IMG/VR virus record: IMGVR_UViG_3300031418_000001
Reading direction: 5' to 3' (one strand)
DNA from: a virus
Lineage: Duplodnaviria; Heunggongvirae; Uroviricota; Caudoviricetes
Length of the DNA stretch: 64,000 bases
Shown: one piece after another, positions 2,142-39,205 of the stretch
Numbering within the stretch: position 1 is the first letter of the stretch
Layout of the letters: each line of letters opens with the position of its first letter
Position numbers and translations under genes: made by a program
Notes under the pieces: model-generated
What the model was told of the DNA's origin: nothing
What the model saw: the letters and a program-made list of their open reading frames with translations, nothing else
Databases searched by the model: none

Positions 2142-2585
2142 ATGAAAATAGAATTACACGAACCATTTTGTAGCAAATGGAAATTCGGGTACTTGAGAGA
2201 AAGTCCTGATAAAAGGAAAAGAATTGATTTATTCAATTCCAATGAAGATAGAACCACTATATCTTATTCAAGATACTTAATGTCAGTTCATGTTGGTAGG
2301 TTTCTTAATGATGATGAAGAAGTAGATCATATTGATGAAGATTGTACAAATGATGATATTAATAACCTTCAGATTTTATCTACCGAAGAACATCGTAAGA
2401 AGAATTCAAAAAGTAATAGTACTGGAAGAACAGTTACTGAACTTAAATGTGAATACTGTGGTAAAGATTTTATACGTGAAAATAGAAGTATAAGAAAAAC
2501 AAACTATATTTCATGTTCACGAAGATGTAGTGCACTTATTAACAATGCAACTAAGAATTTAAAATTTTCTAAACAAGCACCTTAA
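2142..2585 (+). CDS. HNH homing endonuclease
   Basis: VDHIDEDCTNDDINNLQIL..EEH HNH motif plus C-terminal CxxC...CxxxC zinc motif. Confidence 0.85.
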   Translation: MKIELHEPFCSKWKFGYLRESPDKRKRIDLFNSNEDRTTISYSRYLMSVHVGRFLNDDEEVDHIDEDCTNDDINNLQILSTEEHRKKNSKSNSTGRTVTELKCEYCGKDFIRENRSIRKTNYISCSRRCSALINNATKNLKFSKQAP

Positions 2586-5032: not shown

Positions 5033-5251
5033 GGGGCATGTTCCAAGAGGGTCGATTGGGCGAATAAACTATGAACGTCGCTGGCGTAAAAGCCGTCTGT
5101 TAACTGAATCACTGAATGTCTCAGAAGCACCTATAGCGGCCTGACAACAGGCGGGGAGAAACAAGCAAGGGAAGCGTAGTCTAAGGTGAGGAAGGCGTAT
5201 AGCGAGAGTTATACGTAGCAGAAAGTACGGGTTCGAATCCCGTATGCTCCA
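5033..5251 (+). ncRNA. ssrA: tmRNA (minimal, 219 nt), tag (A)ESLNVSEAPIAA
   Basis: GGGGCAT/ATGCTCC acceptor stem with G3.U70 and A73; 3' T arm ACGGG-TTCGAAT-CCCGT; pk1-like pseudoknot; TAACT-GAA resume context; tag frame 5106-5144 ending IAA-stop in a hairpin. Confidence 0.85.
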
Positions 5252-5265
5252 CAAAAGGAATAACA

Positions 5266-6381: not shown

Positions 6382-6500
6382 GGAATCACGCAGCAAATTA
6401 AAAAACAAATCTTATCTGAAAAAAGAATCTTGCAGTTCAAGTCTGCACTACGCAAAGTCTTACATTAGCGTAGCCACGGTGGAGATATGTTTTGATTCCA
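6382..6500 (+). ncRNA. CAGCAA element 1, carrying a permuted tRNA-like body
   Basis: GGAATCA/TGATTCC closing helix; GCAGCAA; T arm TGCAG-TTCAAGT-CTGCA; CTACGC/GCGTAG acceptor-like hairpin. Confidence 0.6.
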
Positions 6501-6508
6501 GTTAATAC

Positions 6509-6581
6509 GTTCCCATCGTCTAACGGCTTAGGACGGCTCCCTTTCACGGAGCAAATCGGAGTTCGATTCTCCGTGGGAACG
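6509..6581 (+). tRNA. tRNA-Glu(TTC)
   Basis: GCTCC-CTTTCAC-GGAGC; GTTCCCA/TGGGAAC acceptor. Confidence 0.9.
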
Positions 6582-6621
6582 CAACATAGTTCCTCCTTTT
6601 CTATGTGTGTTGTGGTTGTTA

Positions 6622-6673
6622 TGGATTCTGACAGCAATTTAAACTCTTATGCTAAAGAAAAAAACGGAATCCA
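6622..6673 (+). ncRNA. CAGCAA element 2 (inner hairpin loop with GCT)
   Basis: TGGATTC/GAATCCA helix; ACAGCAA; TCTT-ATGCTA-AAGA. Confidence 0.6.
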
Positions 6674-6678
6674 GTTTT

Positions 6679-6754
6679 GCACAGATGGCTGAAAGGTTGA
6701 GGCAACGGATTGCAAATCCGTACTATGCAGGTTCGAATCCTGTTCTGTGCTCCA
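6679..6754 (+). tRNA. tRNA-Cys(GCA)
   Basis: ACGGA-TTGCAAA-TCCGT; U73; CCA. Confidence 0.93.
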
Positions 6755-6798
6755 ACATTGTTAAGTACTTTCATAGTAGAGTACTTAATAATGAATTT

Positions 6799-6854
6799 AG
6801 GAATCTAACAGCAACTTTAAAATCTTATGCTTAAAGAAAAAAGAATAGATTCCT
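6799..6854 (+). ncRNA. CAGCAA element 3 (inner hairpin loop with GCT)
   Basis: AGGAATCTA/TAGATTCCT helix; ACAGCAA; TCTT-ATGCTTA-AAGA. Confidence 0.6.
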
Positions 6855-6869
6855 GTTAAAAAAGAATTA

Positions 6870-6923
6870 TGGATACTTACAGCAACCTAAAAACTTTTAT
6901 TGGAAAAAGAAAAACGGTATCCA
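6870..6923 (+). ncRNA. CAGCAA element 4 (inner hairpin loop with TGG)
   Basis: TGGATAC/GTATCCA helix; ACAGCAA; CTTTT-ATTGGA-AAAAG. Confidence 0.6.
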
Positions 6924-7040: not shown

Positions 7041-7562
7041 ATGTCAAAAGTTAGTAAAATTAATAGTATATCAACAACTGAATTTAAAACAATTGTTGAA
7101 TCTTGTTTCTCTATAAGAGAAATTGTCGAGAAAATGGGATTTTCAAGACAGAGTGGAAGTATGGCAATTAAAGTTAAAGAGAGAATTGCCAAAGAACAAA
7201 TAGACACTTCACATTTTTTAGGTAGATTGTCTGTAAAAGGAAAACATATCCGTATTGAAATGGAAGATATATTAGTAAAGGACTCAACTTATACTAATAT
7301 ATACATGCTTAAAAAAAGACTCGTAAATGATAAACTTCTTAAGTATGAGTGTCAACTGTGTAAAAATGATGGTACATGGAATGGTCAAAAATTAACTTTA
7401 CAACTCGATCATATAAATGGAGATCATAAAGATCATAGATTGGTCAATCTAAGGTTTTTATGCCCAAACTGTCATTCACAAACTGAAACTTTCTCAGGTA
7501 GAAATGTTAAAAAATACCCTGAAGTTATCACACTGGTAGGTAGGCCACCCATTATCCAGTGA
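7041..7562 (+). CDS. HNH homing endonuclease
   Basis: CQLC...LQLDHINGDHKDHRLVNLRFLCPNCHSQT. Confidence 0.9.
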   Translation: MSKVSKINSISTTEFKTIVESCFSIREIVEKMGFSRQSGSMAIKVKERIAKEQIDTSHFLGRLSVKGKHIRIEMEDILVKDSTYTNIYMLKKRLVNDKLLKYECQLCKNDGTWNGQKLTLQLDHINGDHKDHRLVNLRFLCPNCHSQTETFSGRNVKKYPEVITLVGRPPIIQ

Positions 7563-8324: not shown

Positions 8325-8556
8325 GTACATTGAACAGGATAGAGATTTATATCAGTACGTAAGAGAACATGTACAAAATAAACCGAGAGTGTACGGTACT
8401 GAAATGTACAATACTTTGTGTTCTATACTTGAACACTTTGTGAATGATGAACTAAGGTTCGATTACATATCTGATGTACTTGATGCTTTAACTGGTCAGT
8501 GTCATGTGAATTGTATTATTGGTACTGGTGATTATCACCTCGATAAAGGTAATTAA
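8302..8556 (+). CDS. hypothetical protein
   Basis: ORF in gene run. Confidence 0.6.
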   Translation: MKFHQLIKYIEQDRDLYQYVREHVQNKPRVYGTEMYNTLCSILEHFVNDELRFDYISDVLDALTGQCHVNCIIGTGDYHLDKGN

Positions 8557-8557
8557 A

Positions 8558-9379
8558 ATGATTACTTGGTTAATCCAAGATACTGCGAGAATGTATTCAG
8601 CAGTTGAAAATGAAATTACACCACTCAATAAGTTGGGTTTTCAATTCAGAACCTTTGGTGTAATTCCATTTACAAATACTATTACTGGTCTTGATGATTT
8701 AGATCCTAACGGAAAATATATCGTTCGTGGTGGAACCAAGATTGTAGACTTGTTAAGTACTGGCGTATCTGATAATCTTTCTCCTGAGCTTATGGAAGCA
8801 CTTGCTAAAGGTGTATCATATAACAGGATGAACTTTGACCAAGCTTATTATTCTGAATTGGATTTACCATTACTGAATGCTAAACCAGAAATTCTGGATT
8901 TAAACGATGATAAGAATCTTCATGCATCATTCAGTACTGATAAGTTTGTTAAACCAAGTTCAGATCTTAAAGCCTTTACTGGTGGAGTAATGGAAGCTGG
9001 TGAAGTACTTAAGTACTTCATTGAAAGACATTATCACCGTTCCGGTTATGCAGAAGAAACTGCACTGGTTCATGACGTTGAAGAAATTAATTCAGAGTAC
9101 CGATTCATTTGCTTAAATGGTAAAGTGCTACAGGGTTCACAGTATCGTGGTAAACATGATCTTAAACTGGATGCTAATATTCCTTCTGAAATGATGAATG
9201 CAGCAGTTCAGTACGCTACGTTATACAAGCCAAGTGATTTATACACGATGGACTTAGCTGATACTCCTAACGGTATTAAAATTGTAGAGTACAATTGCTG
9301 GAATGGTTCAGGTTTGTATGCAATGAATGTAGAAGAACTTTTCACTAAGGTTCAGGAATATTATGAAAGTAAAAGCTAA
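8558..9379 (+). CDS. ATP-grasp domain protein (DUF4343/R2K-like)
   Basis: FVKPSSDLKAFTG, EYRF, GSQYR, MDLA..NGIKIVEYN motifs. Confidence 0.8.
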   Translation: MITWLIQDTARMYSAVENEITPLNKLGFQFRTFGVIPFTNTITGLDDLDPNGKYIVRGGTKIVDLLSTGVSDNLSPELMEALAKGVSYNRMNFDQAYYSELDLPLLNAKPEILDLNDDKNLHASFSTDKFVKPSSDLKAFTGGVMEAGEVLKYFIERHYHRSGYAEETALVHDVEEINSEYRFICLNGKVLQGSQYRGKHDLKLDANIPSEMMNAAVQYATLYKPSDLYTMDLADTPNGIKIVEYNCWNGSGLYAMNVEELFTKVQEYYESKS

Positions 9380-10687: not shown

Positions 10688-10761
10688 GGGGTAGTAAGCT
10701 AATGGTAAACTGGCCGCTTGTTTAGCGGTATTTCCCTGTTCGATTCAGGGCTATCCCGCCA
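10688..10761 (+). tRNA. tRNA with GTT anticodon (Asn), atypical U37
   Basis: GCCGC-TTGTTTA-GCGGT; GGGGTAG/CTATCCC; G73; CCA. Confidence 0.75.
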
Positions 10762-12646: not shown

Positions 12647-12711
12647 TGGATTCCCGCAGCAAACCATTATGAAATAGACTTTTAATCTAAACCTTCAAAA
12701 AATGGAATCCA
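12647..12711 (+). ncRNA. CAGCAA element 5 (Lys TTT anticodon stem-loop)
   Basis: TGGATTCC/GGAATCCA; GCAGCAA; TAGA-CTTTTAA-TCTA. Confidence 0.65.
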
Positions 12712-12743
12712 GCTAAATTACGTGAGTTATCACAACTGAATTA

Positions 12744-12809
12744 AAGAATCCCGCAGCAAACCCCAAATGAAAAAGACTTTTAATCTTATACTTCAATAAA
12801 TGGATTCTT
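12744..12809 (+). ncRNA. CAGCAA element 6 (Lys TTT anticodon stem-loop)
   Basis: AAGAATCC/GGATTCTT; GCAGCAA; AAGA-CTTTTAA-TCTT. Confidence 0.65.
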
Positions 12810-13215: not shown

Positions 13216-13881
13216 ATGTCAAAAGATAAAGAAGTTAAGTACTCAACTGTGAAATATAACTCTTTAACCATTTTTAATAACCCGAGCTTTGCTACACATA
13301 CAATTGCTGGTGCTATTAATGATACATCCTTTAAAGACTTTCGTGATTTTTTGAATAAAGTATTCGAACATAATCAGAAAATTGATGAAGATGATCGTGA
13401 GTTCAAAGAGAAAGAAGCGTTTAATAAGATCCATGATCCAGAAGCTAAACCAACTTTCCGTAGTACTAAAACCAAAATCGAACGTATCAACCTTATCGTT
13501 GATAGTCGTGGTGGTTCATGTTCTTCAATGACTAACATTGTTGCTCTCATGAATGCATCACCTATTCCGATTGATACTTACTGTTTCGGTGCTGCAATGA
13601 GTGCAGGCTTCATGATCTTTATCCACGGTAAACGTCGCTATATCGACGGTACAGTAGACCTTATGACGCATAGTTTAAGTACTATGGTATGGGACGATGC
13701 ACCGAGCATTAAGCGTTATACTGACCATATTGTTCGTTTGAATGATATCTATCAGCAGATGATCGCAGATAAAACTGGTCTGACCCTGGAATGGATTAAA
13801 CAAAACGAAGAACGAGATATTCACTTTATTGCTGAAGAAGCACTTAAGTCTAAAATCGCTGATGTTTTGGTAGTTAATTAA
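13216..13881 (+). CDS. clpP: ClpP-like serine protease (peptidase S14)
   Basis: INLIVDSRGGS, TYCFGAAMSAG (catalytic Ser), LMTH (catalytic His), FIAEEALK..IAD; start moved downstream of tRNA-Ile. Confidence 0.85.
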   Translation: MSKDKEVKYSTVKYNSLTIFNNPSFATHTIAGAINDTSFKDFRDFLNKVFEHNQKIDEDDREFKEKEAFNKIHDPEAKPTFRSTKTKIERINLIVDSRGGSCSSMTNIVALMNASPIPIDTYCFGAAMSAGFMIFIHGKRRYIDGTVDLMTHSLSTMVWDDAPSIKRYTDHIVRLNDIYQQMIADKTGLTLEWIKQNEERDIHFIAEEALKSKIADVLVVN

Positions 13882-13891
13882 TAAAAGAATT

Positions 13892-14020
13892 TGGAATTAA
13901 ACAGCAAAAACTTTATAATGGGAACAATTGGTCGAAGGTTCGAATCCTTCTCTCCCGACCATTTCTGACGGGAGATAGCTCAGTGGTAGAGCACTTGTAT
14001 ATAAAACAAAATTAATTCCA
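13892..14020 (+). ncRNA. CAGCAA element 7 containing a circularly permuted tRNA-Pro(TGG)
   Basis: 3' half (TGG...T arm...TCTCCCG-A-CCA, 13919-13961) precedes 5' half (CGGGAGA...D arm...CTTGT, 13969-14000). Confidence 0.8.
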
Positions 14021-14039
14021 GTTAAATTCAGGTACAAAA

Positions 14040-16215: not shown

Positions 16216-16287
16216 CTCCGGTTGGGTCATGGGTTGATCGCTTGTTTTGGGAACAAGAATAAGGAAGTTCGAGTCTTTCACTGGAGA
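16216..16287 (+). tRNA. tRNA-Pro(TGG)
   Basis: CTTGT-TTTGGGA-ACAAG; C1-G72; A73; atypical D arm. Confidence 0.8.
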
Positions 16288-16306
16288 CAAATAATAAGGA
16301 CATATT

Positions 16307-28900: not shown

Positions 28901-30052
28901 TTATACAGTATCTTTGGCAAGTTTAAATGTAGATGTTGTGAAGTTCACCACGTTAGCAGTTGCACCAGGCGGTAACTGATAAGCACTGATATAATCACCA
29001 GCCATCATTATTTCATTATTACCCTTCTGGTAATAAGATATACGACTATTGTAATTGAATCCTGTAATATCTACTGGTAATGTTGGAAGTGCAGTAAACA
29101 CGTACTTATAACCAGTTGAACCTGTACCTGAACCATATCCCGAATCCCCTGAATAGTACCAGTTATTATTAATAAAGATGTGTGCCATTCCACTACCAAC
29201 GCTGATCCGTGTTGGAACCCCAGGTAAATTTGTCAATAATTTCAGTACGTTGTTGGCTGATGTGTTAGATGAGCCTGTACCCAATCCTAACGCACCATTG
29301 CTGTTATTCCCACACACATACATTCCATTATCAGTAAGGGCGTAGAATTGCATCTGCCCCGCTGCAATCTTGTTTACCGAGGCTAAGCCTGGTATTGTCG
29401 TTAACGTGGTGACGTTCGCATTAGATGCAGTACTGAAACCACACTGTGTATTAGCATTATTACCTGCTACTTTAACAGTACCATCCTGCATTAAGAAATA
29501 AGTACTTCCCCCATCCGTTGACATTTTAATATCAAGTACTGAACCGAATGTACTAAGATTTCCAAATAATGATAAGGATGAAACTTTTAATGTATCTCCA
29601 GTGAATAGCCCACCGTAAGAATTAGTACCAATCCGGTACATATCACCTGCGTCAGTTACGCCAATGAAAGCATTAGTACCTAAGCACATAAATTTATAAT
29701 TATTGAATCTACTGAAAGAAGTGGTTATATTCTGCCATGTTGGTGTAGTACTACCGGATGGATTAAGTGCCTGGTTGTTACCACACCAGTACCATGAATC
29801 ATCAATGGTTCTTATAAGTACTGCTGAACCTGAATACCAGAATTGTTTAACGTCTTCTCTCAGTACTTTCCATACTGTTGTACTGGCTGTTGTTCCATCA
29901 CCAAAGGTTGAACTGTTTTGTCCGTAAACATATAATCTTCCAGCAAGATCCTGAACGTATATAGTACGGAAACTTGATTGTATATCAACAATCTTATTTG
30001 TTATTACTGTTTCCTGATTAGCATATGTAATTAGTATACAAAAAGGTAACAT
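28901..30052 (-). CDS. MLPF-leader RCC1/BLIP-II-like beta-propeller protein
   Basis: GGAG RBS before ATG 30052; G.N..G.LG repeats. Confidence 0.8.
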   Translation of the reverse strand: MLPFCILITYANQETVITNKIVDIQSSFRTIYVQDLAGRLYVYGQNSSTFGDGTTASTTVWKVLREDVKQFWYSGSAVLIRTIDDSWYWCGNNQALNPSGSTTPTWQNITTSFSRFNNYKFMCLGTNAFIGVTDAGDMYRIGTNSYGGLFTGDTLKVSSLSLFGNLSTFGSVLDIKMSTDGGSTYFLMQDGTVKVAGNNANTQCGFSTASNANVTTLTTIPGLASVNKIAAGQMQFYALTDNGMYVCGNNSNGALGLGTGSSNTSANNVLKLLTNLPGVPTRISVGSGMAHIFINNNWYYSGDSGYGSGTGSTGYKYVFTALPTLPVDITGFNYNSRISYYQKGNNEIMMAGDYISAYQLPPGATANVVNFTTSTFKLAKDTV

Positions 30053-30106
30053 AATAATTCTCCATGTTGTTTGAAATGTTAAATAAAAGTTAAATTTATT
30101 TAGCAA

Positions 30107-30175
30107 TAAAAAAAGCCAGCATTTAGCTGGCTTAATTGAATTTGCGTATTGTACCATTCGTGGAAAAGGCAACAT
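30107..30175 (-). pseudogene. orphan MLPFP leader stub running into a terminator
   Basis: MLPFPRMVQYANSIK then AAGCCAGC/GCTGGCTT-T run hairpin; preceded by an 11-G tract. Confidence 0.55.
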
Positions 30176-30189
30176 GTTCCCCCCCCCCC

Positions 30190-31032
30190 TTAAACTATTT
30201 TGTATAAAGTACTTGTACTTATAGCATATGCATGGTTGTAAGAACATACAAGACCACCTTCAGCATGTCCAACTGGTAATGAAGAATTTAGTAATGTCCA
30301 ACTGTTAGTACTTAATTTATAAGCATATAAACCATTTGTTGAACTACGTGCATATATGTTATCACCCATACGTGAGATCTTTTGTCTTGAACCTGAGCCT
30401 GGATAATTAGCCAGTGTACTCCATTTATTAGTTTCTATTGAGTACTTTGCAAAATTATTACCATAAAGATAATATATATAACCTGAACTATAGATCCAGC
30501 CACCTTCAGCACTATTTGTTGTATAAAATGGCAAAGATGCTGACCCAGTAGTAATCCATACATTATTAACAATATCGTACTTATAGAATACGTTATTTTT
30601 CTGGTAATATATAAAGTCATTATTATCATAATCTACGCATATTGAATGGTCATAAGTAGCGGAGGGTAAATTAGCTAAAGTATCCCATGTTCCTGTTGTT
30701 AAATTATAACGGTCGAATCTATTAGTATTGCTATATCCACCTGCACAATATATATATTGACCATTAGTAGTGAATGCAATGTTTCTAACCGATACTGGAC
30801 GTGTTGCTATTTGAGTAAATGTATCGTCTTCTGGATTAATTTGAAAAATTTGCGATGATTGTGTTATAGCAAACAATTTCTCTTTGTATGAAGTCATACG
30901 AGTGCCATATGCACCAAAATTAGTGTTAGTACCTAAAGTACTTACCGTTCCAGTTAGTGAATTAGGATTCTTATCATCATCATTTCTAACTACTGTATTG
31001 CCGTATCGTGTTAATTGTGAAAATGGTAGCAT
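30190..31032 (-). CDS. MLPF-leader Kelch-repeat protein
   Basis: IYCAGG...RYNLTTGTW Kelch pattern. Confidence 0.8.
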   Translation of the reverse strand: MLPFSQLTRYGNTVVRNDDDKNPNSLTGTVSTLGTNTNFGAYGTRMTSYKEKLFAITQSSQIFQINPEDDTFTQIATRPVSVRNIAFTTNGQYIYCAGGYSNTNRFDRYNLTTGTWDTLANLPSATYDHSICVDYDNNDFIYYQKNNVFYKYDIVNNVWITTGSASLPFYTTNSAEGGWIYSSGYIYYLYGNNFAKYSIETNKWSTLANYPGSGSRQKISRMGDNIYARSSTNGLYAYKLSTNSWTLLNSSLPVGHAEGGLVCSYNHAYAISTSTLYKIV

Positions 31033-31040
31033 ATTTCTCC

Positions 31041-32198
31041 TTAAAATCCAGTTGGCATCTTTATTTGCACATATTGTGCGGTTGACGACCCACCCTGATT
31101 AACCAATGCACCTAATGCATATAACCTATTGTTTCCTGCTGTTCCTTTGTAAAAAAGAATACTTTCTCTTAGATCAGTACAGTACATTTCAGGAATAATA
31201 CCCACTTCAGCCGCAGGTAGTGAACGTACAAAAGTTTTCGCAGTAGTTTGAGAATTAGTATTAAGTATTGGTATATTATTAGTGTTACCATGAGCATAAC
31301 AAGCACGAGAAGTCGCATTGGCATAATAAACATATGATCCTGCTGCACCAGCAATATCATGACCGGAGCTAAGAGAATAACCATTAGTTGCGTTATTAGC
31401 TCCACTTGCGTTAACAACTCCACTTATACCAGAATATACTACAGCACCTGTAGTTGTTAATGCTAATATATTTGCTACTGAACCAAAATAAACTTTTTTA
31501 ATGTTTAAATTTGTTAATGATGCAGTATATGTAGAATATGAACTTGTTGTTGTTGAATTGATTTGTTTAAATGAGTTGCTACCTGACATATACAATTTGT
31601 TATTATAATCTAAAATTGCAGAACTGTCATACTGATTATACATACCATAAAAGAATACATCCATTACTGGAGTACTTGTACTGAATGGTACTAAAGTATA
31701 AGTAGTTTTGCCACCACTCATTCCAAACATAGTATAACCATTCGACCCACTCCAGTATAACTGACCATCATTGGTAAGTAATGCACTTGAGTAATATCCA
31801 GGTTTAATGTACTTAATGTTGGTGACAGGAACTGGAATACTTGCAGTTATATTAACCCAAGAACTAATAACTCCAGTACCCATTGCAACTGAACCAAACA
31901 TGTTTGAATTTTGAACCTGTCCACAAGCCCACACTGTTCCATCGTTTTTTATTACTACTGTACAACGTGAGTTATTACTGAATACACGTGCAACATTATT
32001 CATTTCATTACTTTTGTACCACTGTGCAGTAGTACCATTTGTTGTACCATTACCAAAATTACCATAAGTATTAAATCCATAAAAGTACAGATCTCCTGCC
32101 CCTGAAACAAAAGCAAAGCTGCTGTTTCCGGCATCATATGATACAATCTCACTCTTAGGTAATATTGGGGTCTGGCTTATAATTGGGAAGGGTAACAT
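31041..32198 (-). CDS. MLPFP-leader RCC1-like beta-propeller protein
   Basis: DGTVWACG, GFNTYGNFGNG repeats. Confidence 0.85.
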   Translation of the reverse strand: MLPFPIISQTPILPKSEIVSYDAGNSSFAFVSGAGDLYFYGFNTYGNFGNGTTNGTTAQWYKSNEMNNVARVFSNNSRCTVVIKNDGTVWACGQVQNSNMFGSVAMGTGVISSWVNITASIPVPVTNIKYIKPGYYSSALLTNDGQLYWSGSNGYTMFGMSGGKTTYTLVPFSTSTPVMDVFFYGMYNQYDSSAILDYNNKLYMSGSNSFKQINSTTTSSYSTYTASLTNLNIKKVYFGSVANILALTTTGAVVYSGISGVVNASGANNATNGYSLSSGHDIAGAAGSYVYYANATSRACYAHGNTNNIPILNTNSQTTAKTFVRSLPAAEVGIIPEMYCTDLRESILFYKGTAGNNRLYALGALVNQGGSSTAQYVQIKMPTGF

Positions 32199-32209
32199 TT
32201 TATTTTTCC

Positions 32210-33337
32210 TTAATTGTATGGTGTTGGCATTGGAACATAAACGTAACTACTATTAACAAGTATCATTGATGAATAACCAGCCGCGTATACCTTATTATCA
32301 TATACATAATAAGAAGCATTACTTACAGAACATATATTACTTATTGAACCTAAATTCTGTGAAGTTATAGAACCAAGAGCCTTTGTAAATGTAGTTACTG
32401 TGGTATTTCCATTATTAATCCCAAACCGCCCACCGCCATTACTACCAGTACTATACATTCCATCTGAAGAAATTACAGTACTCATATAGAAATCAGAAGA
32501 TACAGGTAATAAAGTACATGCGGTTAATCCTGGGTTATATGGTAATAACTGCCATGAAGTTCCAGTGCTTCCATTACCTAACTGTCCGTTACCTCCATTA
32601 CCACATATTCTTAATGTACCATCAGTCAGTATAAATGATGTATTATATTGTGAAGTACTAATATCAATACAGTTAAAAGATGTGTACTGCTGGAATGTTG
32701 TGAAAACGGTAGTCTCGTTTGAACCTAATAATACCCGATAAGTGTTAGTACCGGTACGCCATATCGTGCCATCATTCTTGATGATCCATGTTCCAGCTAA
32801 GGCACACTGAACCTTCTTAACGTTAGTACCATTCGCAAGTGCAGTCCATACAGAAACACCCGCAGTACTCGATCCTGAACCTAAACCATTGTACTGATTA
32901 CTGCCTATTCCCCATAACTTATCAGTACCATCAATAAGGAATAACCTTCCTATATCGGGAGCAGATTCAATGGACTTAATAGTACTTAAATCAAAAGTAC
33001 TGAACCTTGAAGTAATATCAACATATGTAGTACTCGTACCCGCTCCAGTAAAAACATAACCAATGTTTCCTGAACCGTATACCTTATTGTCATTAGTAAC
33101 TAATATACTGAAGTTCGGGCCAGAACAATATAAACGTACATTATCCTTTAACCGTGTCCATGCGGAAAGTAATGTAGTATCACCTGTTCCGTACTTACCC
33201 GAGCTATTAGTGCCTAACGCATAGGTATCACCTGAATTATATTGTAGTACTATACTGTTATTTGAAGATGATAAACGCCTGATCCCTGGATTTTCAGGCT
33301 TTATTCTTAAATTGTTAATTATTGGAAATGGTAACAT
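32210..33337 (-). CDS. MLPFP-leader RCC1-like beta-propeller protein
   Basis: DGTLRICGNGGNGQLGNG. Confidence 0.85.
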   Translation of the reverse strand: MLPFPIINNLRIKPENPGIRRLSSSNNSIVLQYNSGDTYALGTNSSGKYGTGDTTLLSAWTRLKDNVRLYCSGPNFSILVTNDNKVYGSGNIGYVFTGAGTSTTYVDITSRFSTFDLSTIKSIESAPDIGRLFLIDGTDKLWGIGSNQYNGLGSGSSTAGVSVWTALANGTNVKKVQCALAGTWIIKNDGTIWRTGTNTYRVLLGSNETTVFTTFQQYTSFNCIDISTSQYNTSFILTDGTLRICGNGGNGQLGNGSTGTSWQLLPYNPGLTACTLLPVSSDFYMSTVISSDGMYSTGSNGGGRFGINNGNTTVTTFTKALGSITSQNLGSISNICSVSNASYYVYDNKVYAAGYSSMILVNSSYVYVPMPTPYN

Positions 33338-33346
33338 ATTATATCC

Positions 33347-34495
33347 TTATTCCGGTGTTCTTATTGGCGTTAAAACATACGTATCTGCATCTAACCATAA
33401 TGCACTGACGCCACAAGCGTATAAAAGATTATTTGATACAACGAAAGTACTTCCACTGTTACTCGCCAACTGCCCTACTCTACAGAATGACTGTACTCCT
33501 GGTGCCGGAAGAGTCATTTCACTGAATCCTGTGTTTCTTGCAGTACTGGACGCAATGTTTGCACCCGCTGGCCCTGCTGCGTATAATTTAGTACCTGAAG
33601 TGTAAAAGTTCTGATAGTCGAAGTTAATATAACCTGTACCAAAGTTACTGAACTGATTATCAGCACCACCAGCACCTATAGTAAACTTAGTTACTGAAGA
33701 AGTACCATTAAATGGTATCTGACCACCTGAGTTATAACCGTTATATCCACAAAACAATATTCTGGTATCAGTTAAAGTACTGTCACTTGCAGCAAATATC
33801 ATGGAATTTCTGTAACCTTCATATGCCTGTACTGGATAAGTATAACCAGAAGGTAATGCAATCTGTACCCAAGTAGTCTGTATAGCATTACTTCCAGTAC
33901 CTAACTTGTAGTTATCACTATTACCAACACCCATTAGCTTATTATCGTTAGTAATGGCAAATGAACAGTTAAGATTATAATTAATGGACTTAACGTTACT
34001 AAGTGATAGCTGGAATGAAGTTATGGTTGAAGGTAATGCACCAAAGTAGGACTGATAGTTAAATCCAATCGCAAATAACCTTGAATCATTTAACAGTACA
34101 AAAGTACCCTGAGTTCCAGCTTGAATAGATCTTATAGTACTTGCAGGCGTGGATGTTAATGCATATAATTTATCGTAAACTATCCATGAAGTAGTACTAC
34201 TATTATAACCAAGAGAACGATAATAACCTGCACATAAAAATTGATCATCAGTTGTCTGTACTATAGTATGATTTGTACCGCACCAAACATCCTTAACATC
34301 AGTCCTGACAAGTACCCACTCCTTATAACTGTTAGGAGAAGTAATCCCGAACTGATTATAGTTATTAGCACCACGCATATATAAATGCCCGTTGCTGTAC
34401 AGTAATGCTAAAGTAATATCACTGGATACCACTTTCTTTATAGTACTTTTTATAATAGTATTACCGTACTCATTCATTATTGGAAATGGTAACAT
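33347..34495 (-). CDS. MLPFP-leader RCC1-like beta-propeller protein
   Basis: RGANNYNQFG, VGNSDNYKLGTG. Confidence 0.85.
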   Translation of the reverse strand: MLPFPIMNEYGNTIIKSTIKKVVSSDITLALLYSNGHLYMRGANNYNQFGITSPNSYKEWVLVRTDVKDVWCGTNHTIVQTTDDQFLCAGYYRSLGYNSSTTSWIVYDKLYALTSTPASTIRSIQAGTQGTFVLLNDSRLFAIGFNYQSYFGALPSTITSFQLSLSNVKSINYNLNCSFAITNDNKLMGVGNSDNYKLGTGSNAIQTTWVQIALPSGYTYPVQAYEGYRNSMIFAASDSTLTDTRILFCGYNGYNSGGQIPFNGTSSVTKFTIGAGGADNQFSNFGTGYINFDYQNFYTSGTKLYAAGPAGANIASSTARNTGFSEMTLPAPGVQSFCRVGQLASNSGSTFVVSNNLLYACGVSALWLDADTYVLTPIRTPE

Positions 34496-34504
34496 GTGAA
34501 CTCC

Positions 34505-35650
34505 TTATACTAATCCGGTTACATTTAATAAAGATAGTGTCGGTACGTTTGACGGGTAATCAGGCATAAGACCAGGATAAGTACTGTCAAAATAACCACA
34601 CGAATATAACCTGTTAGCCTTTACTGCTACCGTTCTGTATGAACCGTGTGCAATGTATGAACTTCCTTTAAGATCCGGTACTATACTCCACGTCGCCCGT
34701 GTAGTCTGTGAAGCAGAACTGTTGCCATCACCAATAGCCCACCTGTCAGCACCCGCCCCGTATACGTCTCCGTTACTCAGTACCATATGAACTGTGTTAG
34801 ATACTGAACCATAAACCTGCACCGGAAGCATTGAAGAAACTTTCTGAAGTAAATTACCGTTCCCATCAATTACACCTGTACCAAACTTACCATTCAGATT
34901 TCGCCCTACTGCATATAAACCATCACTCTTGAGTACATATAAAGCAGTCTGTGAAACCCACATATCAAGTGCTCCAGTAGTAACAGTAACAAATGTACTC
35001 CTGTTGGATGTACTCGATGAATCATTTAAATTATAATATTGGTTCAAACCCGCACCCCTGATAGTACCGTCTGTTCCCAACAAATAAGTATTCTCACCGC
35101 CTGGAGTAGTTAAAGCCTTCTGTACTGAACTTACACCTAAATCAAATAATCCATTGTAGTTACTCGTAGTTCCCTGACCTAACTGTGAATATAAACTGTT
35201 AAATCCTGAACCATATACCCTTCCGTTCTGTAAAGTAACAATACATGTATAATCACCTATACTCACGTACTTAATAGATGAACCTGAAGTACTTAACATG
35301 TTATTAAACATAGTACTAATATCAAACCACGTATTAGGTATAGTACTCGTACCAACAAACGGATAACCTCGCCCTGCGTAATACCACGTATTATCATTCT
35401 TTTGTATCAATGCACTAAGAGATGCATTTACCCATATATCCTGTACGTTTGAATTAGAAGCGTACCAGTAATCAGTCACGTTCGTTGTATCAGTCTTCCC
35501 TAACTGCTTAACTGTGTTCATCCCACGAGCATATAAATTCCCCGTCTTAGTAAGTACATATAATGTGTTTAATCCAGCATCAGCTTTCTTTATTATATCA
35601 GTACTTCCTAATGTATTGCCGTATGTACTCATTATAGGAAATGGTAACAT
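34505..35650 (-). CDS. MLPFP-leader RCC1-like beta-propeller protein
   Basis: GRVYGSGFN..SQLGQG, VGRNLNGKFGTG. Confidence 0.85.
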   Translation of the reverse strand: MLPFPIMSTYGNTLGSTDIIKKADAGLNTLYVLTKTGNLYARGMNTVKQLGKTDTTNVTDYWYASNSNVQDIWVNASLSALIQKNDNTWYYAGRGYPFVGTSTIPNTWFDISTMFNNMLSTSGSSIKYVSIGDYTCIVTLQNGRVYGSGFNSLYSQLGQGTTSNYNGLFDLGVSSVQKALTTPGGENTYLLGTDGTIRGAGLNQYYNLNDSSSTSNRSTFVTVTTGALDMWVSQTALYVLKSDGLYAVGRNLNGKFGTGVIDGNGNLLQKVSSMLPVQVYGSVSNTVHMVLSNGDVYGAGADRWAIGDGNSSASQTTRATWSIVPDLKGSSYIAHGSYRTVAVKANRLYSCGYFDSTYPGLMPDYPSNVPTLSLLNVTGLV

Positions 35651-35659
35651 ATTATCCTC

Positions 35660-36157
35660 CTAAAAATTATAATAACGTACCGGAGTACTTGCAGTACTCG
35701 GATTATATCTCATTACGTGCTTAGTATCTTCATCGTAATATATAAAGTCCGTAATCAATAATCCAGTGAAAGAACCATATGAGGAAGATGTTAATCCATT
35801 TCTTGATACAGCCAAATAAGAAGGATAAGTACTTCTGACTGAACCAGTGAATGCTACTAAACGAGCCGCAGAATAACCTACAGTCCACATCGCCTGTGAA
35901 GGATACATATGTCTTACAGCTAAGTACATTCTACTGTCATGCGTAACCCGTGTATTATAAGGAGAACCCCACATAGTACCACTTGTACCACCAATAACAG
36001 TACCGTACATCTTCATAGCCGATGGGTATGTATTAAAACCATTAACTAAATCTACCTTTGTATAGACAGTTCCGTTCATCAATTCATCCTTGAATAACTT
36101 ATATTCATCACGTAGTACAGTATTACCGTACCCGTTCATTATCGGAAATGGTAACAT
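35660..36157 (-). CDS. MLPFP-leader protein with LCCL-like domain
   Basis: MWGS...THDS..LAVRH...Y.AVSRNGLTSSSYG resembles the LCCL consensus. Confidence 0.7.
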   Translation of the reverse strand: MLPFPIMNGYGNTVLRDEYKLFKDELMNGTVYTKVDLVNGFNTYPSAMKMYGTVIGGTSGTMWGSPYNTRVTHDSRMYLAVRHMYPSQAMWTVGYSAARLVAFTGSVRSTYPSYLAVSRNGLTSSSYGSFTGLLITDFIYYDEDTKHVMRYNPSTASTPVRYYNF

Positions 36158-36183
36158 AATTTTCCCCTTTTAATTGTATTCAG

Positions 36184-36193
36184 TATTTACCCC
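36184..36193 (-). promoter_or_regulatory. putative late promoter GGGGTAAATA
   Basis: repeat motif upstream of the 36157 start. Confidence 0.6.
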
Positions 36194-36199
36194 AAAAAC

Positions 36200-36291
36200 A
36201 AAAAAGCCTGTTTATCATAAACAGGCATAATTTTATTATTCATTACATATCTTTTGTATTGGTAGACAGATATTATTGATATTAAAAACAT
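36200..36291 (-). pseudogene. orphan MFLISIIS leader stub running into a terminator
   Basis: AAGGAG RBS, ATG 36291, MFLISIIS (cf. MFPISIISQYGN), then GCCTGTTT/AAACAGGC-T run. Confidence 0.5.
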
Positions 36292-36301
36292 CTTACTCTC
36301 C

Positions 36302-37456
36302 TTAATATGGCATGTCTTCTGTAAGTGAAAATCTACTTTTAGTTACTAATCCAAATGTAGTTCCTACACCCTGACCAGTATGATATAACTTACCAGATAT
36401 ATTCATGAATGTTCCAAAAGTACTTGCTGGAGTTATACCAAGTACTGTATCTGGATTCTGTGTAGTGTATCCACTTACATTCTTTGAATACATAGAGTCA
36501 GTTGCAGTGTAACCTGTACCCCTTGCATAGTTTGTGCCTGCACCACTTGAATATATACCTCCCGTACTCCCAATCCCTAACCCAAAGTTGAATGTGGTTA
36601 TAGAAGAACCTACTATCTTTAGTGAACTGAATACATTATCTAATGCAGTTATTCTTGTATACGTCGATAAAGAACTGCTTGAATTTGTACCTAATATTCC
36701 AGTATTAGTTCCCGCTGCATATACCATAGTATTACCTGCTGTGTTCTTTAATAATATCATACTGGCTTGTGTACCTAATGTATAATCCTGTACAGTATAT
36801 CCAGTAGGATTACTAAATGCAGTGTAAGATACTAAATTACTTCCTGAACCTAAACTATAATTAGTACTGTTTCCACTTCTGTACATTATTCCAGAATTGT
36901 TAATAAATCCTGTTGCACCATTCATTGCAAATATAGTCTTTACTCCAGTAAATGCCAGATCTAATGTAGTCCACTGAGTTTTACTTAATCCTAACTCATA
37001 TGAATAAGAATAACCTAAACCGTAAAGATTGCCATTCTGTACTAATACCATAATTGAGTAACCAGCAATTTTTATATCCTGTATTGTACTAATATCAATT
37101 GAACTAAATGAAGATGTTACATCCGTCCAGACTGTATAGTATGTGTTAGTGGTAGTACTTGCAGTAATAGCACTCTTACAACCTACGTACCATATGGTAT
37201 TATCATTCTTTACTACTATACTTCCAAAATCAGCAGTGTAAAATAAACGAACATTTGTATTGCTTAAGTACCAATTGGTAGTAACAGAAGACGTACTTCC
37301 TGTACCTAATCTGTAGAAGTTTCCATTTCCCCTTGTATATAATTCTCCGTTGTCATAAAGTATTCCTATAGTATTACCACCTGAACTTACCTGCTTTATC
37401 TTCGGCGGTGATAATACAATATTCCCGTACTGACTAATTATTGATATTGGAAACAT
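36302..37456 (-). CDS. MFPIS-leader RCC1-like beta-propeller protein
   Basis: AAGGAGAGG RBS before ATG 37456; GELYTRGNG..YRLGTG. Confidence 0.85.
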   Translation of the reverse strand: MFPISIISQYGNIVLSPPKIKQVSSGGNTIGILYDNGELYTRGNGNFYRLGTGSTSSVTTNWYLSNTNVRLFYTADFGSIVVKNDNTIWYVGCKSAITASTTTNTYYTVWTDVTSSFSSIDISTIQDIKIAGYSIMVLVQNGNLYGLGYSYSYELGLSKTQWTTLDLAFTGVKTIFAMNGATGFINNSGIMYRSGNSTNYSLGSGSNLVSYTAFSNPTGYTVQDYTLGTQASMILLKNTAGNTMVYAAGTNTGILGTNSSSSLSTYTRITALDNVFSSLKIVGSSITTFNFGLGIGSTGGIYSSGAGTNYARGTGYTATDSMYSKNVSGYTTQNPDTVLGITPASTFGTFMNISGKLYHTGQGVGTTFGLVTKSRFSLTEDMPY

Positions 37457-37466
37457 ATTCCTCTCC

Positions 37467-38357
37467 TTAATTAAAAACGTACTGTTTATTCGTTCGAGAA
37501 CTGCCCTCATAACCAAGTACATAAAATATTTCATTCTTATTATTGCTCGGAAATAATGATCCAGTACTGCCAGTTATAGTACTGTTAACATATAACGTAC
37601 TCCACGTATTAGTACTTGAATCGTACTTTCCTAAGTTCATAACATTGTTAGATATACAATAAATGTTAGAGTCGTAATAATTGTATACCATCCTCCCAGC
37701 AATACTTCCATATAAAGGAATAGTGCTCCATTGTCCAGTACTTATATTGTACTTTTGTCCTGCACTTCCTTGACAATATAAATATGAACCATCGGTGCAC
37801 ATATCACCTGTACTGTTGTTTGCTATTGTGCTGGCAGTCAATGCTTTCCATGTATTTGTACTGATATTATATGAATATAAATTACTTGTACCAGGTGAAC
37901 CCCACAGATATAAATTGCCATCTCCTGCACTAACTAATTTACTATAAGTACTTTGAGCCGGTTTACCAATGCTTGTAGCATTCTGTGACCATGTATTTGT
38001 AGTTATGTTATAAACGTAAAAGTTATTATTGACTGCACCTTGATTATTCGTTATTCCACCAAAAAGATATATATTACCCATGTATGCACATAACGCAGAA
38101 CCATACGTACTTACTGGTGCATTTGATAATAATTTCCATTCCCTTGTAATTAAGTTAAAACTCCAAAGATCATTATATACAGCACTATTATTGTAACCGC
38201 CACATACATAAGCAATGTTTGTAGTACTATCATATGTATAACCAAAAATATTTCTCGGACTCGGAACAGTTGTAGTAGTATATAATGAACGTATGCCAAC
38301 AATGTTAATCTTTTCAATTTTATTCCCGTACTGACTAATTATTGATATTGGAAACAT
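37467..38357 (-). CDS. MFPIS-leader Kelch-repeat protein
   Basis: YVCGGY...DLWSFN...EW; IYLFGG...YNITTNTW. Confidence 0.85.
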   Translation of the reverse strand: MFPISIISQYGNKIEKINIVGIRSLYTTTTVPSPRNIFGYTYDSTTNIAYVCGGYNNSAVYNDLWSFNLITREWKLLSNAPVSTYGSALCAYMGNIYLFGGITNNQGAVNNNFYVYNITTNTWSQNATSIGKPAQSTYSKLVSAGDGNLYLWGSPGTSNLYSYNISTNTWKALTASTIANNSTGDMCTDGSYLYCQGSAGQKYNISTGQWSTIPLYGSIAGRMVYNYYDSNIYCISNNVMNLGKYDSSTNTWSTLYVNSTITGSTGSLFPSNNKNEIFYVLGYEGSSRTNKQYVFN

Positions 38358-38371
38358 TTCTTTCCCCCTTA

Positions 38372-39205
38372 TTATAAATTTGATGTGTTAATATTTGGAT
38401 ATGACCTGCCATCTCCCCAAATAATACGTACTGCACCATTAGAAGCAGTAGTAGTTCCTCCACCAGCTCCAAATGATAAAGTACTTCCCTTATCAATACT
38501 TCCAGCAGAACCACCGCCGCCATTTATGCCGCCAGCACCGTTTGTACCTTGTCCGTAGATACCAACTCCACCTCCTATACCACCTACTGTTCCAGTACCT
38601 GAACCGCCACCGCCAGCACCACCTGAACCCGCAGTACCATTACTCGAATTACCAACTCCACCCGATCCACCAACTCCAGAATATCCACCAGCACCACCCG
38701 ATCCACCAGTGTTTTCACCATAATAACCACCTTTACCTCCAATACCTCCATTACCTCCACCACCATTAATAGCATTCATATTAGTACCACCCTTCCCGCC
38801 AGTACCTCCACTTCCTCCATTAACCGCAGTCGCCCCTCCTGAACCACCACCCGCAATAACTAATATTTCATCAGATCTTGTAATAGATGAATTACCTCCA
38901 GTTATAGCAGTTGTTGTTGTAGTACTCACCGTTCCCGAAGCACCAACAATTATAGTTAACGTTTCTCCTGGAGTAACAGGAATGTTGTTTCTGTAACTTA
39001 AACCTCCGCCACCTCCACCACCTCCCGATATTCTGGTAGTTGAATTTTTATAAGTGTTTCTTCCACCTCCACCTCCCACAGTAACTGCACTAATACTTGT
39101 TACACCATCCGGTACTGTAAAATCATATGTACCCGCTGTCATAAAATCCTGCTGACCCTTCGGAGGTAATATACTTGTATTGCTTATCATAGGAAAAGGT
39201 AACAT
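38372..39205 (-). CDS. MLPFP-leader glycine-rich protein (fibre-like)
   Basis: FTVPDGVTSISAVTVGGGGG...VTPGETLTIIVG...GAVRIIWG glycine-rich domain pattern. Confidence 0.85.
   Translation of the reverse strand: MLPFPMISNTSILPPKGQQDFMTAGTYDFTVPDGVTSISAVTVGGGGGRNTYKNSTTRISGGGGGGGGLSYRNNIPVTPGETLTIIVGASGTVSTTTTTAITGGNSSITRSDEILVIAGGGSGGATAVNGGSGGTGGKGGTNMNAINGGGGNGGIGGKGGYYGENTGGSGGAGGYSGVGGSGGVGNSSNGTAGSGGAGGGGSGTGTVGGIGGGVGIYGQGTNGAGGINGGGGSAGSIDKGSTLSFGAGGGTTTASNGAVRIIWGDGRSYPNINTSNL

What the first reader, a model, noticed from the sequence alone, without database searches (positions are those of the whole stretch)
13892..14020. Complete circularly permuted tRNA-Pro(TGG) in a phage
Seen: the 3' half comes first: TGG-GA-ACAAT-TGGTC-GAAGG-TTCGAAT-CCTTC-TCTCCCG-A-CCA (13919-13961). 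A 7-nt linker TTTCTGA follows, then the 5' half CGGGAGA-TA-GCTC-AGTGGTA-GAGC-A-CTTGT-AT (13969-14000). Joining 14000 to 13919 gives the arm CTTGT-ATTGGGA-ACAAT, nearly the same as the normal tRNA-Pro at 16216 (CTTGT-TTTGGGA-ACAAG). The C1-G72 and A73 Pro determinants and an encoded CCA are present. The flanks pair (TTTATA/TATAAA and TGGAATTAA/TTAATTCCA) and hold the break point in an internal loop. Established: permuted tRNA genes are known from Cyanidioschyzon and some archaea and mature through a circular intermediate. Inference: it is either spliced to a functional tRNA or kept unspliced as a YrlA-like mimic with no cleavable anticodon loop.
Basis: partly seen in the sequence, partly recalled or inferred. 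Interest (0 to 1): 0.88.

Follow-up and report, generated by a model that had tools for sequence, protein, structure and literature searches.

The report
Phage Y-like RNA mimicking proline tRNA
This is a real, conserved small-RNA gene shaped like a proline tRNA written inside-out. It is most likely not spliced into a working tRNA but is one of a family of tRNA look-alikes that jumbo phages pair with a Ro60-shaped ring protein.

Summary
Observation confirmed: 3' half 13919-13961, 7-nt linker, 5' half 13969-14000, identical in eight other assemblies.

The splicing reading is not supported. The halves sit in a 9-bp closing helix followed by an ACAGCAA box, shared by six other RNAs in the window and by 188 permuted tRNA-like elements elsewhere. 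Among nine orthologues only two encode CCA and two lost all proline identity, while the helices covary. There is no BHB motif, related phages lack a splicing endonuclease, and the break point varies across the family.

The handle tracks a DUF2828 gene: 36 of 48 contigs versus 0 of 50 controls. This phage's inferred copy folds like Ro60 (Foldseek E 2e-10) and lies among RNA-ligase and CCA-enzyme genes.

Best reading: an unspliced YrlA-like partner of a divergent Ro60 that displays a proline tRNA body, probably as decoy or scaffold in tRNA conflict. RNase P opening and prolyl charging remain possible. It fails YrlA membership (33 bits against a cut-off of 69; no 5' GNCGAAG). The scan noted this family before in at least 33 genomes. 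Expression and binding are untested.

The parts
13891..14021 (+). Whole RNA gene (ends inferred from the closing helix), intergenic between clpP and a 127-aa ORF
13892..13900 (+). Closing helix ('handle'), 5' strand; pairs with 14012-14020
   Evidence: compensatory changes in XaC1, GAP32, L447
13901..13907 (+). ACAGCAA box, unpaired; CAGCAA invariant in 12 homologues; presumed site for the Ro60-like protein (inferred)
13912..13917 (+). Inner flank helix, 5' strand; pairs with 14000-14005
   Evidence: sequence
13918..13923 (+). Anticodon remnant (A-UGG-GA) in a 6x1 internal loop opposite A13999
   Evidence: kept in 5 of 9 orthologues
13924..13928 (+). Anticodon-stem 3' strand; pairs with 13994-13998 (4 pairs plus C-U)
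   Evidence: all 5 columns show compensatory change
13929..13950 (+). Variable loop and T arm
13951..13975 (+). Acceptor-stem hairpin: 7 bp with C1-G72, closed by an 11-nt loop (A73, CCA, 7-nt linker)
   Evidence: CCA in only 2 of 9 orthologues
13976..13998 (+). U8-A9, D arm, position 26, anticodon-stem 5' strand
14012..14020 (+). Closing helix, 3' strand
6382..6499 (+). Sibling handle RNA with a degenerate permuted tRNA body (T arm plus acceptor-like hairpin); orthologues in L443 and L447
6622..6923 (+). Three short sibling handle RNAs (6622-6673, 6798-6855, 6870-6923) with anticodon-like loops (GCT, GCT, TGG)
12647..12809 (+). Two short sibling handle RNAs (12647-12711, 12744-12809), each with a Lys(UUU)-type anticodon stem-loop
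16216..16288 (+). Ordinary tRNA-Pro(TGG), no encoded CCA; it already supplies this decoding function
13216..13881 (+). clpP-like gene, used as synteny marker

Best explanation
The stretch encodes a ~130-nt Y-RNA-like RNA that is not spliced at its anticodon end. Steps: (1) It is transcribed with the tRNA cluster and trimmed to the closing helix (inferred). (2) It folds into a tRNA L-shape from T arm, acceptor hairpin, D arm and anticodon-stem helix; the two RNA ends leave through the anticodon loop into a handle (pairing shown by covariation; tertiary fold inferred). (3) The handle, helix plus ACAGCAA, is bound by the phage's DUF2828 protein, a divergent Ro60 ring (fold and co-occurrence shown; binding inferred). 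(4) The particle presents a proline-type tRNA body and anticodon remnant to tRNA-handling enzymes, most likely as decoy or scaffold in the fight over host tRNA-cutting defences and tRNA repair, not as a decoder (inferred, about 0.45 for this step alone). The 11-nt acceptor loop may be opened by host RNase P, as in M. smegmatis YrlA, but the family does not require it.
For: Same topology as YrlA, the best Rfam match (33 bits, E 1.9e-5; PMC4201824). Seven handle RNAs in the window, all + strand in the tRNA cluster; five carry no tRNA body, so the handle is the shared unit. 188 distinct elements elsewhere; 170 have a closing helix of 7 bp or more against 29 in permuted controls. DUF7788/DUF2828 in 36/48 contigs picked by the RNA pattern versus 0/50 picked by a scrambled motif; inside the fetched loci 39/107 viral and 35/55 genome loci versus 0/120 controls of similar length. 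XaC1, GAP32 and a contig of fHe-Yen9-04's length have both gene and RNAs; the contig of RaK2's length has neither. P0124, inferred to be this phage's copy, has an AlphaFold model (pLDDT 92.7) whose 13 best PDB matches are all Ro60/Rsr (E 2e-10, TM 0.58). Its 5' leader holds a conserved hairpin with an ACAGCA-type loop. Neighbours include an RNA ligase, a CCA-adding-like enzyme and Pth2. Intact family loops are enriched for UGU and UUU, the targets of AriB and P2-OLD (PMC12409363, PMC12445682).
Against: The Ro-like gene is not in the window and lies about 200 kb away in XaC1 and GAP32, whereas nearly all YrlA genes lie within 4 kb of rsr. Its assignment to this genome is by shared samples and contig signature, not by one contig seen whole. 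The decoy step rests on a post-hoc, family-level enrichment that fades when elements are clustered at 65% identity (p 0.08) and does not include UGG. This copy keeps all four ProRS determinants and a CCA, and CCA is enriched in the family above chance (25/139 against 2.8%), which a purely sealed mimic does not need.
Confidence: 0.75

Rival explanations
1. Two-piece chargeable mimic. Same particle, but host RNase P cuts at 13969 and 3' trimming exposes CCA at 13961. The two pieces stay paired, are never ligated, and ProRS charges them, as with two-piece tmRNA. This is a sub-case of the best explanation, not exclusive of it.
For: 7-bp acceptor stem and 11-nt loop; M. smegmatis YrlA with a 7-bp stem is cut by RNase P and gains CCA (PMC4201824). 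G72, A73, G35 and G36, the bacterial ProRS determinants (PMC11229370), are kept in 5 of 9 orthologues. GG loops associate with C1-G72 across the family, also after clustering (p 4e-5 to 1e-3). Missing CCA is no bar: several ordinary tRNAs of the window lack it too and the phage has a CCA-adding-like enzyme.
Against: Orthologues in XaC1 (5-nt loop, U73) and GAP32 (UUCG-closed) look sealed; L445 and L446 replaced the acceptor stem and lost the GG; 49 of 188 members have loops of 4 nt or less. The association may be inherited from a tRNA-Pro ancestor.
Confidence: 0.3
2. True permuted tRNA gene. The ends are cut at 13918/13919 and 14000/14001, ligated to a circle, and opened at the acceptor stem to give a working tRNA-Pro(UGG).
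For: The in-silico product is a valid tRNA-Pro. The would-be U33 is kept in 8 of 9 orthologues. In 79 family members the pairs from the two pieces add up to a full 5-bp anticodon stem. The phage has an RNA ligase.
Against: No BHB (against PMC3978253). No PF01974 endonuclease in four related phages, while it rings in 4 archaeal controls. The break varies (28/29, 29/30, 31/32 or later), so no single nuclease site exists. The product would have A32 and a C27-U43 mismatch. XaC1 and KP2025 would get G33. An ordinary tRNA-Pro(TGG) lies 2.2 kb away. Five sibling RNAs have the handle without any tRNA body.
Confidence: 0.04
3. The handle RNAs serve RNA turnover or regulation rather than defence: a RYPER-like tether or gate between the Ro-like ring and host PNPase, or titrators of a Ro-like protein that represses its own mRNA.
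For: Established role of Rsr-Y RNA with PNPase (PMC4201824); phage phiLo Ro60 forms such complexes (PMC12135203); ACAGCA-type hairpin just before the DUF2828 start codon in four genomes.
Against: Does not explain why the copies display different anticodon loops (GCT, TGG, TTT in this window) or keep amino-acid identity sets.
Confidence: 0.3
4. Non-functional debris of tandem tRNA genes (3' half of one, 5' half of the next).
For: It lies in a tRNA cluster; tandem tRNA pairs give similar BLAST hits.
Against: The halves pair with each other with compensatory changes in all 7 acceptor columns, and the handle is conserved.
Confidence: 0.01

Closest known systems
YrlA Y RNA (Rfam RF02553) with Rsr/Ro60 of bacteria and mycobacteriophages (Chen et al. 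2014, PMC4201824)
   Same: Order T arm - acceptor hairpin - D arm inside a terminal stem; partner with the Ro60 fold; a 7-bp acceptor stem as in M. smegmatis YrlA; extra simpler sibling RNAs (like YrlB).
   Different: ACAGCAA box instead of a 5' GNCGAAN0-1G; partner is DUF2828/DUF7788 (14-15% identity to Ro60), not TROVE; gene about 200 kb away in relatives; keeps an anticodon stem and remnant; 33 bits against a cut-off of 69.
Circularly permuted tRNA genes of Cyanidioschyzon, green algae and Thermofilum (review PMC3978253)
   Same: 3' half before 5' half, 7-nt intervening sequence, paired flanks at the break.
   Different: No BHB; break at about 31/32-33/34, not 20/21, 37/38, 50/51 or 59/60; no splicing endonuclease; orthologues lose CCA and identity.
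Two-piece tmRNA from permuted ssrA genes (PMC3978253)
   Same: Bacterial precedent for a permuted gene whose acceptor end is opened and used without ligation.
   Different: No tag reading frame, no alanine identity; opening is untested here.
Thermus phage phiLo Ro60 with Yrl1/Yrl2 (PMC12135203; PDB 9KOP, 9L5Y)
   Same: Phage-encoded Ro60 ring with partner RNAs closed by a terminal stem; structural match to P0124 (E 4e-8).
   Different: TROVE family, CGAA motif, RNAs adjacent to the gene; the passages read mention no tRNA-like domain.

Membership tests
Spliced circularly permuted tRNA | 3' half precedes 5' half and the join gives a cloverleaf | tested here: met
Spliced circularly permuted tRNA | BHB or BHL motif at the junction | tested here: not met
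   6x1 internal loop between a 6-bp and a 4-bp helix, no 3-nt bulges (definition)
Spliced circularly permuted tRNA | tRNA splicing endonuclease available | tested here: not met
   PF01974 absent from XaC1, GAP32, KP2025 and L055's record, present in 4 archaeal controls; this phage's own whole genome was not searchable
Spliced circularly permuted tRNA | Orthologues conserve a functional product (anticodon, U33, identity) | tested here: not met
   L445 and L446 lost GG and C1-G72; XaC1 has G33 and U73; L447 is shifted by one base
Spliced circularly permuted tRNA | Circular intermediate and charged mature tRNA | not testable with these tools
YrlA (RF02553) | T, acceptor and D stem-loops in permuted order inside a terminal stem | tested here: met
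YrlA (RF02553) | Rfam gathering score 69 bits | tested here: not met
   33 bits
YrlA (RF02553) | GNCGAAN0-1G motif near the 5' end | tested here: not met
   absent from the 5' arm; 1 of 188 family members; the match at 13931-13937 lies in the T stem and is kept in only 2 of 9 orthologues
YrlA (RF02553) | TROVE-domain Ro60 orthologue within about 4 kb | tested here: not met
   no such ORF in the window; DUF2828 about 200 kb away in XaC1 and GAP32, adjacent in KP2025
Y RNA in the broad sense | Genome encodes a protein with the Ro60 ring fold | tested here: met
   P0124 model matches Ro60/Rsr over the full length; same-genome link inferred
Y RNA in the broad sense | RNA is bound by that protein | not testable with these tools
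   only co-occurrence
Y RNA in the broad sense | tRNA-type modifications (Psi55, D) | not testable with these tools
   needs RNA

The most novel reading that the evidence does not exclude
The RNA is a protected tRNA precursor: held on the Ro60-like ring, it is opened at the acceptor end, cut at the internal loop and joined by the phage's RNA ligase into a working tRNA-Pro. That would be a permuted tRNA gene matured in a bacterial cell without BHB or splicing endonuclease.
Probability: 0.04. Interest if true: 0.92.

Novelty: new variant of a known kind. Interest (0 to 1): 0.6.

Why it matters
DUF2828 proteins occur in 711 phage records, and my literature searches found no RNA partner described for them. 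This RNA family is the obvious candidate, with a testable binding site. It extends the Ro60/Y RNA system with a second recognition code and with RNAs that display chosen anticodon loops, which suggests a counter-defence by tRNA decoys. The proline-type members are the best place to ask whether any Y RNA is aminoacylated, a question left open by Chen et al. 2014. It also warns genome annotators that permuted tRNA-like genes in phages are not evidence of tRNA splicing.

Tried and rejected
No whole genome is held, so the phage's own genome could not be scanned for an endonuclease and the distance to its DUF2828 gene was not measured. A strict pattern for Pro-type copies with CCA found nothing in viral contigs. 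A pattern for ordinary tRNA-Pro in four genomes returned nothing although such genes are annotated, so it was disregarded. Sequence search of PDB with the DUF2828 alignment gave no significant hit (phage Ro60 at E 1.2); only the fold search showed the relation. The sigma-70-like site at 13891-13919 lies inside the RNA and the region has fewer sites than shuffles: rejected. Minimum-energy folding does not form the anticodon-stem and inner helices (-25.0 against -29.6 kcal/mol) and z-scores are modest (-1.9 to -2.1); those helices rest on covariation. Concerted evolution with the tRNA-Pro at 16216 was rejected: L446, L447 and L449 have different resident tRNA-Pro arms while the element keeps its own. 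The first co-occurrence control had shorter contigs; a length-matched one was added. Conservation of the T loop and D-arm start in the family set is imposed by my search patterns and is not used as evidence. Paper searches for ACAGCAA, DUF2828 and phage tRNA decoys found nothing relevant; the library lacks most subscription journals.

Full report
OBSERVATION. The 3' half of a tRNA (13919-13961, ending A-CCA) precedes a 7-nt linker and the 5' half (13969-14000). ARAGORN finds 18 genes in the window but not this one. Joined in silico, the halves are called tRNA-Pro(tgg). The 129 nt are identical in eight other assemblies, one a 349-kb contig identical to the window over 20,666 nt, so an assembly error is excluded. 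The window belongs to a Rak2-like jumbo phage related to XaC1, RaK2, GAP32 and BF.

ANATOMY. The two RNA ends pair in a 9-bp helix (13892-13900 with 14012-14020). An unpaired ACAGCAA follows at 13901-13907. A 6-bp inner helix (13912-13917 with 14000-14005) stacks towards the anticodon-stem equivalent (13924-13928 with 13994-13998; 4 pairs and a C-U). Between them the anticodon remnant A-UGG-GA sits opposite A13999 in a 6x1 loop. This is not a bulge-helix-bulge as defined in PMC3978253. On 12 homologues 95.5% of cells pair, 18 of 30 pairs change on both sides, and all acceptor and anticodon-stem columns covary. The best Rfam match is YrlA, at 33 bits against a cut-off of 69.

THE HANDLE IS THE SHARED UNIT. 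Six more RNAs in the window have the same closing helix and CAGCAA box: 6382-6499 with a degenerate permuted body, and five short ones showing only anticodon-like loops (GCT, GCT, TGG, TTT, TTT). I found three of the six myself. The other three came as a lead from note e1-5595753 and were checked. Pattern scans of viral and genome contigs gave 188 distinct permuted elements with the box. In 170 a helix of 7 bp or more closes the RNA, against 29 when the partners are permuted. CCA stands at 74-76 in 31; 49 have acceptor loops of 4 nt or less. In 89 the anticodon loop is intact and closed, and the handle leaves from the 5' strand of the anticodon stem (2+3 or 3+2 pairs). In 40, the class the window copy resembles, the D-arm piece supplies nearly the whole stem. 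The break point is therefore not fixed.

CLOSE ORTHOLOGUES. Nine copies linked to clpP were compared. CCA is encoded in two (window, L444). L448, whose clpP is in the same 90% cluster, has ACA and a compensatory change in the T stem. L445 and L446 have a new acceptor stem and no GG. XaC1 is closed by a 5-nt loop with U73; GAP32's copy by a UUCG loop. Five of nine keep G72, A73, G35 and G36, the bacterial ProRS determinants (PMC11229370). The would-be U33 is kept in eight, but it is paired in the inner helix. So shape is under selection everywhere, proline identity often, and a spliceable, chargeable product not consistently.

THE PARTNER. Homologous RNAs lie right behind a DUF2828 gene in KP2025 and behind a TROVE gene in Atuin. 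Of 48 viral contigs picked only by the RNA pattern, 36 carry DUF7788/DUF2828; none of 50 picked by a scrambled motif does. Within loci of similar length the counts are 39/107 and 35/55 against 0/120. XaC1, GAP32 and L055's record have both gene and RNAs; the contig of RaK2's length has neither. These genomes are related, so the counts are not independent events. P0124 (531 aa) occurs in the same three samples as the window's clpP and has the same sources and longest contig (349,418), so I infer it is this phage's copy. Its model (pLDDT 92.7) matches Ro60, Rsr and phage phiLo Ro60 as the 13 best PDB hits. It lies among an RNA ligase, a CCA-adding-like enzyme, a 2H protein and Pth2. A hairpin with an ACAGCA-type loop precedes its start codon, and the stem is conserved in XaC1, L142 and GAP32, which suggests that the protein binds its own leader.

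MECHANISM. Shown: the fold of the RNA by covariation, the family, the Ro60 fold of the protein, their co-occurrence. Inferred: expression, binding at the handle, function. I favour an unspliced Ro-like particle that displays tRNA parts (0.75). Among intact family loops UGU (13/89) and UUU (10/89) exceed the background of ordinary tRNAs in the same loci. With GUU these are the targets of AriB (PMC12409363), and UGU is the target of P2-OLD (PMC12445682). The excess survives clustering at 80% and 70% but not at 65% and was noticed post hoc, so a decoy or repair-scaffold role gets about 0.45. RNase P opening and prolyl charging of this copy get about 0.3, on the M. smegmatis precedent and the family-wide excess of CCA and of GG with C1-G72. 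Splicing to a working tRNA gets 0.04: no BHB, no endonuclease in four relatives, variable break, sealed orthologues, and an ordinary tRNA-Pro at 16216.

COMPARISON AND VERDICT. It works like YrlA but is not a member: score, 5' motif and neighbouring TROVE gene all fail. It is not a member of the spliced permuted tRNAs. I found no paper describing the ACAGCAA family or an RNA partner of DUF2828, within the limits of the library. The scan's own notes hold 34 matching findings in at least 33 genomes; they agree but are unchecked and are not counted as support. Verdict: new variant of a known kind; interest 0.6.

Noticed in passing
window 6382-6923 and 12647-12809: Six more handle RNAs in the tRNA cluster; five show only an anticodon-like loop (GCT twice, TGG, TTT twice).
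   Followed up: partly
L143:9954-9985 (outside the window; inferred same phage): Hairpin with an ACAGCAA loop just before the DUF2828 ribosome-binding site; stem conserved in XaC1, L142 and GAP32. Possible autoregulatory site.
   Followed up: partly
L143:6223-19278: RNA-repair-like cluster round DUF2828: RNA ligase (TIGR02306), PRTase-like, 2H, lysozyme, HPF/S30AE, CCA-adding-like enzyme lacking the C-terminal part of PRK10885, NUDIX, YqeY, Pth2.
   Followed up: partly
window 5171-5252: ARAGORN reports a tRNA with an unassignable 8-nt loop; another note (e1-5595756) reads 5033-5251 as a minimal tmRNA. Not tested.
   Followed up: no
window 16216-16288: The ordinary tRNA-Pro has an atypical D arm (G9, GGTC/GATC stem) and a mismatched T stem; close relatives swap it for different tRNA-Pro types (L446, L447, L449).
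   Followed up: partly
window 10688-10761: tRNA called Asn by ARAGORN but missed by Rfam at gathering score; its loop reads TTGTTTA (U37).
   Followed up: no
window 2142-2585 and 7041-7562: Two HNH-like ORFs inside the tRNA cluster (by eye from the translations); relatives carry other HNH genes at 12-13 kb (L011, L012, L445).
   Followed up: no
window 28901-39205, minus strand: Array of about ten paralogous ORFs starting MLPFP or MFPIS, with RCC1- or kelch-like repeats by eye.
   Followed up: no
window 8519-9379: R2K-clade ATP-grasp protein within the tRNA cluster.
   Followed up: no
L003:3980-4110 (phage Atuin): A Pro-type permuted body like this one, but behind a true TROVE gene, without ACAGCAA and with a CCGAAG motif upstream: the same body seems to be used with either handle.
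   Followed up: partly
L359-L442: 84 stretches in bacterial genome assemblies, mostly gut MAGs, match the same RNA pattern; 35 of 55 loci with a parsed element hold DUF2828 within the fetched 8 kb. Whether these are prophages was not checked.
   Followed up: partly
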